A stretch of DNA of 38,740 bases from a virus (Duplodnaviria; Caudoviricetes), in IMG/VR virus record IMGVR_UViG_3300031460_000089, positions 1 to 38,740 of that record; one strand, given 5' to 3'. Below the pieces are notes generated by a model. The model had not been told where the DNA came from and searched no databases. It saw only the letters and a program-made list of their open reading frames with translations. The first letter of the stretch is position 1. The number at the start of each line of letters is the position of its first letter. Shown in pieces: positions 9,759 to 38,740 of the stretch. Made by a program: the position numbers and the translations under genes.

Positions 9759-9792
9759 GTGAGCTGTCTTTACTGGACGGCACCTTGCGACG

Positions 9793-9822
9793 GCCCTGGA
9801 CTTCGGTTCGGGGCTTTTGTCG
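9793..9822 (+). terminator. Intrinsic terminator in the late leader
   Basis: GCCCTGGAC-TTCG-GTTCGGGGC stem with C(UUCG)G loop, followed by TTTTGTCG. Confidence 0.75.
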
Positions 9823-9868
9823 TCTCATCCGGGCCAGGAGCCGACCAACACACAACACGAGGTGAACG

Positions 9869-10354
9869 ATGCCTCGTGGACGACCAGTCGAACCCGAAAA
9901 GCGCGCGTTGGTGTTGAAGCTCCACGCTGCCGGTGACGGTCGTAATGCGATCGCTGAGGCGTCGGGTGTGTCCGCGTCGTCGGTGACGGCGATTGTGGCT
10001 GAGGCTGGTAGGTCGTTTGATCGGTCAGCTACGCGGGTCGCTGTGGATGCGCGACGGGTCGACTTGGCTGCGATGCGCGCCGAGTTAGCTCGTGGCCTGT
10101 TGGTGGACGCCGCGTGGTTCCGTGAGCAGGCGAGGTTGCCCGGTCAGCGGATGACGGTCAAGGGCGTGCTGGTCGACCTGAGTCGGCCCGAGGCTGGCGA
10201 TGCGCGGAACTGGATGACGTCGCTTGGTATCGCTGTGCAGCGGTCGATGGAGTTGGAGAAGTTCGATTCGGATCGTGGTGTGGGTGATGCGGTCAGTGTG
10301 TTGGATTCGCTCAGTGCGGCGTTGAAGACCGCCGCTGATGTGCTGGACGCCTGA
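9869..10354 (+). CDS. Probable terminase small subunit (N-terminal HTH)
   Basis: GRNAIAEASGVSASSVTAI HTH then helical region; GAGG RBS; first late gene, upstream of terL. Confidence 0.7.
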   Translation: MPRGRPVEPEKRALVLKLHAAGDGRNAIAEASGVSASSVTAIVAEAGRSFDRSATRVAVDARRVDLAAMRAELARGLLVDAAWFREQARLPGQRMTVKGVLVDLSRPEAGDARNWMTSLGIAVQRSMELEKFDSDRGVGDAVSVLDSLSAALKTAADVLDA

Positions 10355-10505
10355 TCAGTACTTGCTCGGCCGGGGTGAGCCAATGGGGCGAGTCGTGCTG
10401 GTGTCGAACCTCGCCAGTGGCCGTCACGATGTCGTTCACGTGCCCGCCGGGTGGACATTCGCAGCCTCGGAAGTAGTCGCCCGCTAGTCCAGGGCTTTCG
10501 TTCAT
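10311..10505 (-). CDS. Small hypothetical protein, antisense to the late operon
   Basis: GAGAGGAAAG RBS; ATGA-coupled to 10502-10615; CEC...H motifs. Confidence 0.5.
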   Translation of the reverse strand: MNESPGLAGDYFRGCECPPGGHVNDIVTATGEVRHQHDSPHWLTPAEQVLIRRPAHQRRSSTPH

Positions 10506-10615
10506 GGCACTTTCCTCTCGTTGCGGGTCTTGAGCACGGCGACGCAGATCAGTTGTGTCGCCTGCGCACCGATGAGCGCCGCGAAGATCACGATCTCCCA
10601 GGTCAGTGCATTCAT
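10502..10615 (-). CDS. Small membrane peptide, 37 aa (not in ORF track)
   Basis: MNALTWEIVIFAALIGAQATQLICVAVLKTRNERKVP: one hydrophobic helix and a basic tail; GATGAT-N6-ATG leaderless-type -10. Confidence 0.55.
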   Translation of the reverse strand: MNALTWEIVIFAALIGAQATQLICVAVLKTRNERKVP

Positions 10616-10659
10616 TGGCTTATCATCCCACGTCACACCCACAATCAGGAGGAAACATC

Positions 10660-10839
10660 ATGACCGAACCGACCGTGCAGCCGGAAGCCTTCGAGACGCA
10701 GGACGCCCCGAAGGTGGAGGAGCCGAACCGCCCCGACCTGCCGCCGGAGTCGTGGCCCGCGCAGGTCCCCGACGACGAGAAGGCCTCCGACGCGCCGGAG
10801 CCGGCCGTGCAGCCGCAGACCGAACTGCCCCCGCAGTGA
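10660..10839 (+). CDS. Acidic Pro-rich small protein, 59 aa
   Basis: Strong AGGAGG RBS; predicted disordered from composition. Confidence 0.65.
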   Translation: MTEPTVQPEAFETQDAPKVEEPNRPDLPPESWPAQVPDDEKASDAPEPAVQPQTELPPQ

Positions 10840-10946
10840 CCAGCCCGCAGCCGGTCGAGCCCGTCGAGCCGGTGACACCCGACGACCGGCGGAAGAATGA
10901 TCTGCAGCACGAAGACGCACCCGACGGAGAGCAGACAAGGCGCTAG
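10836..10946 (+). CDS. Small hypothetical protein, 36 aa
   Basis: GTGA overlap with the previous gene. Confidence 0.4.
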   Translation: MTSPQPVEPVEPVTPDDRRKNDLQHEDAPDGEQTRR

Positions 10947-10957
10947 TGTGGAACGTC

Positions 10958-11050
10958 TTCGTAGTAGCCCAAGGACGAACCTGGTCCAAAGGAGACAGAG
11001 GCACTCGGTTCAAGCCGGGGTCAGTGCAGGTTCGATTCCTGCCTACGAAG
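10958..11050 (+). tRNA. Atypical tRNA-Leu(CAA)-like RNA with expanded D-loop
   Basis: Acceptor TTCGTAG/CTACGAA; TAGCCCAA...AGAGGCA D-arm ends; CTCGG-TTCAAGC-CGGGG anticodon arm with one G-G mismatch; variable TCAGT; T-arm GCAGG-TTCGATT-CCTGC; no encoded CCA. Confidence 0.65.
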
Positions 11051-11057
11051 GTTGACC

Positions 11058-12338
11058 ATGGGCGGCATGGACCAGGTCCTGCGGATCATGTCGCCCGCCC
11101 AAATCCGGTCTATCGCCCGCGCACCCCAGGCGAAGATCAGCCTCTGGGAAGGCAGCGTCTCAGCCGGCAAAACCATCGCCAGCCTGTTCGCGCTGCTCCT
11201 GGCCATCCGCGACGCCCCACGGAACGGCCTCATAGTCATCATCGGCAAGACGTTGGCCACCGTGCACCAGAACGTGTTCTTCAACCTGCAAGACCCGAAG
11301 ATCTTCGGGACACTGGCCAACCAGGTGCAGTACACCCGCGGCGCGACGTCCGGCCGCATCCTGGGCCGCGAAGTGCTGGTGATGGGCGCCAACGACAAAC
11401 GCGCCGAAGAGAAGGTCAGAGGCGCAACCGCAGCGCTGATCTACGTGGACGAGGCGACGATCCTCCCCGACGAAGCGTTCTTCAACATGCTCGTCACCCG
11501 CCTCCGCATCCCAGGTGCCCGGATGCTGGCCACCACGAACCCGGGCGCCCGGAATCATTGGCTGCGGATCAACTGGATGCTCCGGCCCGCTGAGGTCGAG
11601 ATGCAGGTCTTCTCGTTCCGCATGTCCGACAACCCGTCGCTCACACCCGAGTACATGGCCAGCATGGAACGCACTTTCACCGGCGTGTTCTACCAGCGGT
11701 TCATCCTCGGCATGTGGACCAACGCCGAAGGCGCCATCTACGACATGTGGATGCCCGAGAAGCACGTCATCCCGTGGATGGACCTGCCGGAGATGCACCA
11801 GCTCGTCGGCGTCGGCATCGACTACGGCACGCAGCACGCATCGTCGGCGATCATGCTCGGGTTGGGTGTGGACCGCCGGCTGTACCTGGTCGATGAGTGG
11901 CGGCAGGACCCGTCGAAGCCGCCGCACCTGAACCTCACCGACGTGCAACAGTCCCAGATGATCAAGGCGTGGCTGACGCAGTCGCACCTGCCGTATCTGA
12001 CCGGCCTGAAACCGCAGTGGTTGGTGTGCGACCCGGCGCCGCGGCACTTCCGTGAGCAGCTGTACAACGACGGCGTCGTCACCCAGGCCGCCGACAACGA
12101 GGTGGCCGGCGGTATCCGCACCGTCGCGTCCCTGCTCGGCCAAGGCAAGCTGCTGGTCGCCGACCGCTGCCACGGGTTCATCGAGGAAATCCCCGGCTAT
12201 GTGTGGGATGCCAAGGTGGCGGAACGCGGTGAGGACAAGCCAGTGAAGGAAAAGGACGACTCGATGGACGCCGCCCGGTACATCGTGCATTCAACACGCG
12301 AGTTCTGGCGCCTAGACCTTCAACTCCAAGCCGCGTAG
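11058..12338 (+). CDS. terL: Terminase large subunit (PBSX-like)
   Basis: Walker A GSVSAGKT, Walker B LIYVDE, TTNP motif, nuclease GIDYG and DDSMDAARY. Confidence 0.95.
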   Translation: MGGMDQVLRIMSPAQIRSIARAPQAKISLWEGSVSAGKTIASLFALLLAIRDAPRNGLIVIIGKTLATVHQNVFFNLQDPKIFGTLANQVQYTRGATSGRILGREVLVMGANDKRAEEKVRGATAALIYVDEATILPDEAFFNMLVTRLRIPGARMLATTNPGARNHWLRINWMLRPAEVEMQVFSFRMSDNPSLTPEYMASMERTFTGVFYQRFILGMWTNAEGAIYDMWMPEKHVIPWMDLPEMHQLVGVGIDYGTQHASSAIMLGLGVDRRLYLVDEWRQDPSKPPHLNLTDVQQSQMIKAWLTQSHLPYLTGLKPQWLVCDPAPRHFREQLYNDGVVTQAADNEVAGGIRTVASLLGQGKLLVADRCHGFIEEIPGYVWDAKVAERGEDKPVKEKDDSMDAARYIVHSTREFWRLDLQLQAA

Positions 12339-37720: not shown

Positions 37721-38542
37721 CTAGCTCGTCTCCGGGAGACCGGCGTCCCACGCACCAACGGCATGGCGCGCTGTCTCCGAGTTCGGCTTCACATAGATGG
37801 CGGTGCTCGTCGGGGACGCGTGACCCATCTGTTCCTGCACCAGGCGGATGTCGGAACTAACCCGGTAGAGCCCAGTGCCGTAGGTGTGCCGCAAGCTGTG
37901 GCAGGTCCATGGCATGTCCAACTCCCGGAAGTGGACCGATATCAGTTGGGTCACCCTGATCGGCTTCACCTCCCACAGCCGGCCCTTGAGCCGCATGAAC
38001 GGTTTAAGCCGAGAGACCAGGCCGCCACCAATCAGCACCGTCCGGTCACGGCCGCCCTTGCCGTCCCGCACCTCGATCAGCATCTGGTCCAGATCGACGT
38101 CCTCCGCGCGGAGCCGGGCGATCTCACCAGCCCGCAAACCTGAGAACGCTGCGAGCGCCAGCCACGTCTGAATACGCGGTCGACCAGCTAGGATCGCAGT
38201 CATCACGTCTTTGATTGGTGCGGGCCGTGGCCTCCCCACCGGGGCCTTCACTACCTGGACGGCTTCGCGCATCGTGTGATCGCATGCACGACCCATCCGG
38301 CACCATTCGAGAAACGCCCGCAGTTCCCGCGCGTAGACGAACCGTGTCCATTGGTGCCGCTGCATGGTGCGGACCTGCCATGCGGACAGCTCCTCTGGTC
38401 GGCAGGTGAGGATCGGCTTCTGTAGGTCTCTGGTGATCGATGTTAAGGCGCTGACCCTGGTCCGAATGGTGTCCGGCCGAAGCCCCTTCACCCGCATGCT
38501 GTTTGCGTAGTCGGCAATCTCGTTGCCTGAGGTATTTAGCAT
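37721..38542 (-). CDS. int: Tyrosine integrase, short form without an obvious arm-binding domain, 273 aa
   Basis: GLRAGE (R), DGKGG (K), HSLRH, MGH and AIY catalytic set; ATG 38542 preferred because the longer ORF crosses attR. Confidence 0.93.
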   Translation of the reverse strand: MLNTSGNEIADYANSMRVKGLRPDTIRTRVSALTSITRDLQKPILTCRPEELSAWQVRTMQRHQWTRFVYARELRAFLEWCRMGRACDHTMREAVQVVKAPVGRPRPAPIKDVMTAILAGRPRIQTWLALAAFSGLRAGEIARLRAEDVDLDQMLIEVRDGKGGRDRTVLIGGGLVSRLKPFMRLKGRLWEVKPIRVTQLISVHFRELDMPWTCHSLRHTYGTGLYRVSSDIRLVQEQMGHASPTSTAIYVKPNSETARHAVGAWDAGLPETS

Positions 38543-38586
38543 GGGGCTAGTGTGGGGTATATCACTCGACTGGCCTAGCCCCGTGA

Positions 38587-38643
38587 TCAAGCTGCAACCT
38601 TCGCAGTTACCAAGCCGCCTCTGACCTGCATGTTTGCTAGATA
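38587..38643 (-). other. Detached 3' end of the repressor gene (YLANMQVRGGLVTAKVAA*)
   Basis: In frame with the repressor once the two att cores are joined. Confidence 0.85.
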
Positions 38644-38655
38644 CCGGCCAGTAGC
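38642..38655 (+). repeat. Putative attR core TACCGGCCAGTAGC
   Basis: Identical to 2-15; 100 bp upstream of the int start. Confidence 0.85.
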
Positions 38656-38740
38656 CTTTGCCGGTAACATGCTGGAACCGGCATTCGTGCCGCCGCCCCG
38701 GCCCGCGTTTCACGCGTTTCACCTTCCCGCGGACGAGCGA

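What the first reader, a model, noticed from the sequence alone, without database searches (positions are those of the whole stretch)
10952..11060. tRNA-like RNA with a hairpin inserted in the D-loop, overlapping the terL translation start region
Seen: perfect 7-bp acceptor stem (extendable by 1-3 bp), canonical T-arm, 5-nt variable loop and CAA anticodon, but about 30 nt between the D-stem strands, including a GGAC-N7-GTCC hairpin; G-G mismatch in the anticodon stem; no CCA. The 3' strand overlaps the GAAGG 6 nt before the terL ATG. Established: cellular tRNA-Leu has a long variable arm and a short D-loop. Inference: a non-canonical tRNA or tRNA mimic, for example an RNase P/Z processing signal gating terL translation or a decoy against tRNA-targeting defence; a decaying tRNA is also possible.
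Basis: partly seen in the sequence, partly recalled or inferred. Interest (0 to 1): 0.7.

Follow-up and report, generated by a model that had tools for sequence, protein, structure and literature searches.

The report
Non-decoding leucine-tRNA body before terminase
A phage carries a conserved RNA built on a leucine-tRNA frame, with an extra hairpin in its D-loop and the marks for decoding lost, whose stem is predicted to cover the start signals of the DNA-packaging enzyme gene and likely helps keep that gene's output low.

Summary
The cloverleaf is real: one hit in the window, none in 200 shuffles. What is unusual is an ~20-nt D-loop insert with a hairpin, a displaced GG, G73 (A73 in 85 of 86 relatives), and an anticodon arm predicted to refold into 6 bp with a 4-nt loop. 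It is unlikely to decode. Eight related runs keep it. Only 3 of 95 sites vary, all structure-neutral, against 9 of 28 terL third positions. Three unrelated phage RNAs have the same Leu body with a covarying D-loop hairpin, but they are free-standing and keep A73. Here the element ends a 703-nt cassette that separates terS from terL, which abut in 44 of 51 relatives. Its acceptor stem is predicted to bury terL's weak RBS, and an open frame runs through it to 2 nt before the terL ATG. Best reading: a cis-acting, RNase P/Z-cleavable brake on terL (0.4). Rivals are a decoy RNA and a relic. There are no RNA data.

The parts
9869..10354 (+). HTH protein in the terS position (putative small terminase)
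   Evidence: Weak Pfam HTH hits, below cut-off; phrog_5536. Its homologue ends within 60 nt of terL in 44 of 51 related loci; here it ends 703 nt away
10660..10839 (+). 59-aa acidic Pro-rich ORF of the cassette between terS and terL, with a strong RBS
   Evidence: 7 homologues only, 67-98% identical; RBS -10.3 kcal/mol
10836..10946 (+). 36-aa ORF overlapping the previous stop; its stop lies 1 nt before the candidate read-through start
   Evidence: Sequence; no family hit
10948..11055 (+). Candidate read-through uORF (35 codons) spanning the whole tRNA-like body; stop 2 nt before terL ATG 11058
   Evidence: Frame open. Start GTG here, ATG in 7 of 7 runs covering it; stop TGA, TAA in 2 runs. Peptide not constrained and no protein homologue. 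Translation not shown
10947..10957 (+). 5' extension predicted to pair with 11050-52 and with the terL start 11056-60
   Evidence: Predicted in all 5 allele sets folded; window alleles at 10947, 10948 and 10956 are wobble-compatible. Partly trivial, because CATG is self-complementary. Replaced by other sequence in run X7
10958..10964 (+). Acceptor stem, 5' strand (U1)
   Evidence: 7/7 pairs; invariant in 8 runs
10965..10972 (+). U8-A9, D-stem 5' strand and A14-A15 of the short-arm Leu family
   Evidence: Same motif as the 86 canonical phage genes
10973..10987 (+). Inserted D-loop hairpin, 4 bp with a 7-nt loop
   Evidence: Stem invariant; only loop positions 10981 (8 of 8 runs) and 10982 (7 of 8) differ; P 0.98 with majority alleles
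10988..10995 (+). Rest of the insert: purine linker holding a displaced GG and a strong SD-like stretch with no start codon after it
   Evidence: Sequence; anti-SD duplex -9.2 kcal/mol
10996..11003 (+). Leu-type 3' D-arm (C20-A20a-G21-A22-G23-G24-C25-A26)
   Evidence: Family motif
11004..11019 (+). Anticodon arm: ancestral Leu(CAA) loop, predicted to refold into 6 bp with a 4-nt loop
   Evidence: the T11005C variant (2 of 8 runs) turns U.G into C-G; the same 7-nt loop occurs in a canonical phage Leu(CAA), L185
11020..11025 (+). Short variable loop ending in U48
   Evidence: Matches family motif NCAGT
11026..11042 (+). Canonical T-arm
   Evidence: 5/5 pairs; invariant in 8 runs
11043..11051 (+). 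Acceptor 3' strand, G73 discriminator and the weak terL RBS (AAGG)
   Evidence: G73 against A73 in 85 of 86; RBS -4.3 kcal/mol; unpaired probability about 0 with majority alleles, 11047-49 mostly open with window alleles in a 250-nt context
11058..12338 (+). PBSX-type terminase large subunit; start at 11058 or 11067
   Evidence: phrog_2; PBSX-family homologues; 11058 reads GTG with one extra upstream base in 3 of 8 runs

Best explanation
This is a conserved RNA structure derived from a short-arm phage tRNA-Leu(CAA); it is predicted not to decode and likely acts in cis on the late transcript as a brake on terminase (terL) expression. Shown: the Leu body, the D-loop insert, loss of A73, conservation across related strains, and its place at the end of a cassette that has separated terL from the terS gene it normally abuts. 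Predicted: the acceptor stem, extended through G73 and G74, buries terL's only (weak) RBS, and a further helix covers the start codon. Inferred: the intact acceptor/T-arm stack makes it a substrate for RNase P and, lacking CCA, RNase Z. A 3' cut would leave a terL message with a 7-nt leader and no RBS. On uncut messages, ribosomes restarting at 10948 after the 36-aa ORF would read through the body, unwind it, stop 2 nt before the terL ATG and re-initiate. Terminase output would then depend on the race between folding/cutting and read-through, and would stay low relative to structural proteins.
For: Ancestry: family motifs, and 75 of 88 in-silico D-loop cuts called Leu(CAA). Non-decoding: G73 (A73 in 85 of 86), where A73 is the main LeuRS determinant and G73 an antideterminant (PMC9976931, passages); U1-A72 in 0 of 86; no position-30 mismatch in 86; 4-nt-loop register about 7 kcal/mol more stable. 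Selection: 3 of 95 sites vary against 9 of 28 terL third positions (Fisher p 7e-5, runs X6-X9) and against 5 of 16 adjacent non-coding sites (p 0.0015). The 3 changes lie in the hairpin loop or keep a pair. Upstream DNA is replaced in X6 and X7, in X7 up to exactly 10957. Cis position: terS abuts terL in 44 of 51 relatives; no tRNA-like RNA lies closer than 576 nt to terL in 160 loci. The terL RBS scores -4.3, against -10 to -14 for 7 of the 11 other starts scored. T10956C in 7 of 7 covering runs completes pairing over the RBS. The uORF start (GTG/ATG) and stop (TGA/TAA) are kept through changes; rough chance 0.23 x 0.23 x 0.05 = 0.003 before allowing for hindsight. RNase P cuts acceptor+T-arm model substrates and phage C4 RNA (PMC11143913, passages). 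RNase Z processes CCA-less tRNAs (PMC4919913, passages).
Against: No expression, end-mapping or reporter data. The three other D-hairpin Leu bodies (L166, L170, L196) lie among early or recombination genes, keep A73 and the canonical GG, and have no terL in the 1.5-kb flanks, so the hairpin is not tied to terL control. The terL start is uncertain (11058 or 11067). 11058 reads GTG with shifted spacing in 3 of 8 runs, and an equally weak RBS serves 11067. X7 has lost the 5' extension and the uORF start as aligned here. With the window's own alleles the T-arm is predicted to misfold and the RBS is partly open in a longer context. The displaced GG may spoil the elbow that RNase P/Z clamp. Against the 95 nt upstream, conservation is not significant (3 against 10 sites, p 0.08). 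The 8 runs are close strains (X2 and X3 identical; X5 and X7 from one study). A cis brake does not by itself explain why the D-arm and hairpin stem are invariant.
Confidence: 0.4

Rival explanations
1. A trans-acting tRNA mimic or decoy: cut out of the late transcript as a ~95-nt RNA that binds or distracts a tRNA-handling protein (anticodon or D-loop nuclease, acceptor-end toxin, synthetase), the D-loop hairpin blocking cleavage or providing a handle. The overlap with terL's start is incidental.
For: The whole body, including D-arm and hairpin stem, is invariant. The same design recurs free-standing in three unrelated phage records, with 3 compensatory pairs in the hairpin between L166/L196 and L170, shortened anticodon arms, A73 and CC(A). 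tRNAs and odd tRNA-likes lie upstream of terL in 8 of 160 relatives. Phage tRNAs counter tRNA-targeting defence (PMC10264068, PMC11555353; search listing and abstract starts only).
Against: G73 paired into an 8-9-bp stem and no CCA make charging unlikely here. Published counter-defence tRNAs work by decoding (abstract level). No target is identified. Homology between the window's hairpin and the L166 group is not shown: different stem, displaced GG.
Confidence: 0.3
2. A relic: a tRNA-Leu(CAA) gene that suffered a D-loop duplication and lost identity, kept only because it overlaps terL's initiation region and the strains diverged recently.
For: The insert resembles a slipped copy of the D-loop (CCAAGGA at 10969, CCAAAGGA at 10986). 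No homologue beyond close strains: none in 160 terL loci, 401 Actinomycetota genomes (11 hits, 11 control hits) or 251 genomes of one order. The window's alleles predict misfolding.
Against: Third positions and flanks have drifted while 92 of 95 positions have not. Positions far from terL's start (D-arm, hairpin stem, anticodon stem) are equally fixed. The one stem change keeps the pair.
Confidence: 0.2
3. A working tRNA-Leu(CAA) for UUG codons, with the insert tolerated or removed.
For: The ancestral CAA loop is intact in the 7-nt register and identical to that of a canonical phage Leu(CAA), L185. The terS-like gene uses TTG for 8 of 16 Leu codons and portal for 13 of 48. LeuRS ignores the anticodon arm (PMC9976931).
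Against: G73, U1-A72, G30.G40, displaced G18G19 and the more stable 4-nt-loop fold, all fixed in 8 runs. No splicing route is known to me for a 20-nt bacterial D-loop insert (recalled).
Confidence: 0.06
4. A two-state switch in which the insert pairs with the T-arm (anti-T-arm) to toggle tRNA-like folding.
For: In the window strain 10972-83 is complementary to 11027-40 (8 + 4 bp) and dominates the predicted ensemble; X8 alleles give a 66:34 mix.
Against: C10981G (8 of 8 runs) and T10982C (7 of 8) break two of those pairs without compensation, and the alternative drops to P 0.01.
Confidence: 0.04

Closest known systems
Short-variable-arm tRNA-Leu of Actinomycetota and phages (Rfam RF00005 tRNA)
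   Same: U8-A9, D-stem, A14-A15, C20-A20a-G21, 5-nt variable loop ending U48, T-arm and CAA loop; best canonical match 35 of 54 compared positions (L265)
   Different: 23 nt instead of 2-5 nt between A15 and C20, with a hairpin; GG displaced; G73; U1-A72; anticodon arm predicted to refold; overlaps a gene's initiation region
D-loop-hairpin Leu-body RNAs in L166, L170, L196 (found here; no Rfam match)
   Same: Leu D-arm with a hairpin inserted between A15 and G18, non-canonical anticodon arm, GWCAGT variable region, 7-bp acceptor
   Different: They have 6-bp hairpins with a GACG loop, canonical GG, A73 and CC(A), and lie among early or recombination genes; common origin with the window's element is not shown
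Phage RNase P substrates such as P1/P7 C4 antisense RNA, and tRNA-like processing signals in polycistronic RNA
   Same: tRNA-like acceptor/T stack embedded in a longer phage transcript (PMC11143913, passages)
   Different: No Rfam C4 match; clear tRNA-Leu ancestry; position over a terminase start
Non-decoding phage tRNA-like RNAs (T5 RNA1, T4 species 1 RNA)
   Same: tRNA-shaped, anticodon region unfit for decoding, function unknown (T5 RNA1 from an unchecked earlier scan note; T4 species 1 recalled, and one search found no paper)
   Different: In T5 RNA1, as noted, the extra hairpin replaces the anticodon loop; here it is in the D-loop and the element overlaps a translation start
Allo-tRNAs (8/4 and 9/3 cloverleaves; PMC5389517, abstract and passages)
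   Same: Non-canonical cloverleaf in bacteria and phages; acceptor extendable to 8-9 bp
   Different: T-stem is 5 bp, not 4 or 3; the defining oddity is the D-loop, which that paper's main text never mentions (0 occurrences of 'D-loop')

Membership tests
Canonical tRNA-Leu (short arm) | 7-bp acceptor, 5-bp T-stem with TTCRA loop, U8-A9 | tested here: met
Canonical tRNA-Leu (short arm) | A15 and U48 present (Levitt pair); A20a-G21 | tested here: met
   Sequence positions 10972, 11025, 10997-98; pairing itself not testable
Canonical tRNA-Leu (short arm) | Discriminator A73 | tested here: not met
   G11050, fixed in 8 runs; A in 85 of 86
Canonical tRNA-Leu (short arm) | Short D-loop with G18G19 directly before position 20 | tested here: not met
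   23 nt against 2-5 nt; nearest GG 3 nt earlier
Canonical tRNA-Leu (short arm) | 5-bp anticodon stem with 7-nt loop | tested here: not met
   G30.G40 (0 of 86 have a position-30 mismatch); 6-bp/4-nt fold about 7 kcal/mol more stable; prediction only
Canonical tRNA-Leu (short arm) | Aminoacylation and decoding | not testable with these tools
   No RNA run holds the stretch
Allo-tRNA (8/4, 9/3) | 12-bp branch with a 4- or 3-bp T-stem | tested here: not met
   T-stem is 5 bp
Rfam families incl. tmRNA, YrlA/Y RNA, C4 antisense, group I introns | Covariance-model match | tested here: not met
   No match over the element at E<=5; ARAGORN finds no tRNA or tmRNA
att-site tRNA remnant | 3' tRNA fragment at a prophage end, near the integrase | tested here: not met
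   Both halves present; ~11 kb from the left end and ~27 kb from the integrase at 37721-38722; single copy
Mobile palindromic hairpin inserted into tRNA genes | Further copies of the hairpin elsewhere | tested here: inconclusive
   In this record only the element itself matches exactly; 5 other places at 3 mismatches were not followed up; host genome not available
RNase P / RNase Z processing signal | Coaxial acceptor + T-arm; no CCA (RNase Z) | tested here: met
   Sequence; P(acceptor) 1.0 and P(T-stem) 0.98 with majority alleles, 0 with window alleles
RNase P / RNase Z processing signal | Actual cleavage at +1 and after position 73 | not testable with these tools
   Needs end mapping

The most novel reading that the evidence does not exclude
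A phage tRNA gene has been domesticated into a translational gate: ribosomes read a short ORF straight through the tRNA body to restart on terminase, while host RNase P/Z cut the same body out to shut that route. It is one use of a wider, undescribed class of D-loop-hairpin Leu-body RNAs in phages.
Probability: 0.2. Interest if true: 0.8.

Novelty: new variant of a known kind. Interest (0 to 1): 0.52.

Why it matters
tRNA finders miss these RNAs (ARAGORN and Rfam both did), so phage tRNA-derived elements are under-counted. If the cis model holds, it shows a tRNA fold turned into a regulator of the packaging motor, replacing lost terS-terL coupling, and it can be tested with one reporter. If the decoy model holds, the D-loop hairpin points to a counter-defence that does not need decoding. 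Either way it bears on why phages keep non-canonical tRNA-like genes.

Tried and rejected
ARAGORN at low thresholds gave hundreds of noise calls and was discarded. blastn of the element against 50,697 phage records gave only T-arm-length hits; L170 and L196 gave no full-length hit. An exact 17-mer scan of viral contigs found 0. TerL searches found no relative above 59% in viral contigs. The genome scan was cut off at 26 of 64 parts. The metagenome scan returned only the window's own record and one 47% relative. So the 68-93% TerL relatives P0002-P0004 could not be read at DNA level except through laid contigs. Pattern scans of viral contigs gave 9, 34, 120 (27 of 64 parts), 79 and 10 hits; only L166, L170 and L196 had a D-loop hairpin. 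The 11 hits were judged by eye, not folded. A sequence-only model run on 99 of 162 terL loci plus the window found only the window. One search had an off-by-one in T-arm parsing and was redone. One search used misregistered columns and is uninformative. No RNA holder was listed; this says nothing about expression. The sigma-70-like site at 10872-10901 was rejected as a dedicated promoter: 9/12 match, variable, and separated from the element by inserts in X6 and X7. No protein homologue was found for the frame through the element. Literature searches found no paper describing D-loop-hairpin phage tRNAs; subscription journals and supplements were not seen (e.g. the 'irregular tRNAs' of PMC5389517 may be in its supplement).

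Full report
Setting. The window is a 38,740-base provirus record. It has RecE/RecT, RusA, a PBSX-type terminase, portal, tape measure and an integrase at the right end. Its TerL relatives are mostly actinobacterial, and the runs holding it are labelled rock metagenome.

Observation. The acceptor + T-arm + U8 pattern occurs once in the window and in 0 of 200 shuffles. ARAGORN and Rfam miss it. When 14-24 nt are cut from the D-loop in silico, 77 of 88 versions are called tRNA, 75 as Leu(CAA).

Ancestry. A pattern scan of viral contigs (120 loci from 27 of 64 parts) yielded 86 distinct canonical genes of one family with the same D-arm and a 5-nt variable loop: TAA 54, CAA 13, TAG 11, CAG 5, GAG 2, AAG 1. 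The family is also cellular, in 8 of 41 Actinomycetota genomes (7 without the unpublished G005). PMC7450476 (passages) likewise says only several M. tuberculosis Leu tRNAs have long arms, whereas the review PMC9976931 states long arms generally. So the short arm is ordinary. The element's 7-nt loop equals that of a canonical phage Leu(CAA), L185.

What is altered. There are 23 nt between A15 and C20 (2-5 in the 86), including a 4-bp hairpin. The nearest GG sits 3 nt earlier than canonical. The discriminator is G (A in 85 of 86); A73 is the main LeuRS determinant and G73 an antideterminant (PMC9976931, passages). The first pair U1-A72 occurs in 0 of 86, and a mismatch at position 30 in 0 of 86. 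Slipping one base gives a 6-bp stem with a 4-nt loop, about 7 kcal/mol more stable. Decoding is therefore unlikely; this is an inference from sequence and folding.

Related strains. Contigs of 8 runs cover the element (X2 and X3 are identical, X5 and X7 share a study). Within 10957-11051 only three sites differ: 10981 (8 of 8), 10982 (7 of 8), both in the hairpin loop, and 11005 (2 of 8; U.G to C-G). In one search, 9 of 28 terL third positions vary (p 7e-5). Over both of 16 adjacent non-coding sites vary (p 0.0015). Against the partly coding 95 nt upstream the difference is not significant (10 sites, p 0.08). One to three differences per contig were unlisted, probably near stretch ends. Upstream DNA is replaced by 178 letters in X6 and 298 in X7, in X7 up to exactly the first base of the stem. 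With majority alleles the predicted fold has hairpin, anticodon stem, T-arm and acceptor (P 0.98-1.0). With window alleles the insert pairs with the T-arm instead (P 1.0), so the window strain is the outlier and the switch idea is not conserved. The D-stem itself is not favoured in any prediction.

Other members. Three phage records (L166, L170, L196) carry a Leu body with a 6-bp hairpin between A15 and G18, shortened anticodon arms, A73 and CC(A). Their consensus with the window is a cloverleaf with a D-loop hairpin; 13 of 27 pairs show a two-sided change, 3 of them in the hairpin between L166/L196 and L170 (the window's insert aligns poorly there). They lie near RecT-, Bet- or NinB-like genes and have no Rfam match. 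Common origin with the window's element is possible but not shown. None was found in 401 Actinomycetota genomes (11 hits, 11 control hits), 251 genomes of one order or 160 terL loci. Earlier scan notes mention D-loop hairpins in other phage tRNAs; these are unchecked leads.

Context. Among 51 terL loci with a detectable homologue of the HTH gene, 44 have it ending within 60 nt of terL; here it ends 703 nt upstream. The gap holds small ORFs (the 59-aa one has 7 homologues only) and the element. tRNAs or tRNA-likes lie upstream of terL in 8 of 160 relatives, never closer than 576 nt. TerL's RBS is weak (-4.3 kcal/mol, against -10 to -14 for 7 of the 11 other starts scored, anti-SD motif recalled) and lies in the acceptor 3' strand. 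With majority alleles it is fully paired, and 10947-51 pairs with the start codon region in all five allele sets folded. That helix is partly trivial because CATG is self-complementary. A frame starts 1 nt after the 36-aa ORF's stop (GTG here, ATG in 7 of 7 covering runs), runs 35 codons through the body and stops 2 nt before ATG 11058 (TGA; TAA in X2 and X3). The rough chance is 0.003, before allowing for hindsight. The peptide is unconstrained and has no homologue. Against this: X7 lacks that 5' part, and 11058 is GTG with shifted spacing in 3 runs, so 11067 may be the true start.

Mechanism. RNase P cuts acceptor+T-arm substrates and phage C4 RNA (PMC11143913, passages). RNase Z trims CCA-less tRNAs and clamps the elbow (PMC4919913, passages). 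I commit to a cis brake on terL through occlusion, likely processing and possible read-through coupling (0.4). A trans decoy (0.3) explains the invariant D-arm and the free-standing look-alikes better. A relic (0.2) cannot be excluded with close strains alone. A decoding tRNA (0.06) and a conformational switch (0.04) are unlikely. All functional steps are inferred; no RNA data exist.

Verdict. A real, conserved, non-decoding tRNA-Leu derivative. It fails membership as a tRNA-Leu and as an allo-tRNA, and is a new variant of phage tRNA-like RNAs. Searches found no description of it; supplements and subscription papers were not seen. Interest 0.52.

Noticed in passing
L066:1746-1858 (+); L081:1760-1870 (+): tRNA bodies about 630 nt upstream of terL with a long hairpin in place of the anticodon arm. 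A short motif in that arm also follows the tRNAs in L004, L027 and L052.
   Followed up: partly
L044:535-592 (+): tRNA-like RNA lacking most of the anticodon arm, upstream of terL (Rfam tRNA 44 bits).
   Followed up: no
L166:1487-1579 (-); L170:1494-1586 (+); L196:413-504 (+): Leu-body RNAs with a covarying 6-bp D-loop hairpin, 3-4-nt anticodon loops, A73 and CC(A), among early or recombination genes; no Rfam match.
   Followed up: partly
L174:1081-1177 (Mycobacterium phage Acolyte, MH509441.1): Unannotated multi-hairpin RNA closed by an 8-bp stem, sharing 26 of 27 nt of variable loop, T-arm and acceptor 3' strand with the window's element; no Rfam match.
   Followed up: partly
L400, L423, L427/L439: Further Leu-type bodies with non-decoding anticodon arms; L400 also lacks G18G19 and has G73.
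   Followed up: no
window 9869-10354: The terS-like gene uses TTG for 8 of 16 Leu codons, unlike terL (3 of 42).
   Followed up: no
window 9792-9825: Terminator-like hairpin with a T-run just before the terS-like gene; probable early/late boundary.
   Followed up: no
window 10502-10642 (-): 46-aa reverse-strand ORF with a hydrophobic stretch inside the terS-terL cassette; no family hit.
   Followed up: no
viral contigs L232-L430: Short-arm tRNA-Leu in phages covers six anticodons (TAA, CAA, TAG, CAG, GAG, AAG), against the textbook statement that Leu tRNAs have long arms.
   Followed up: partly
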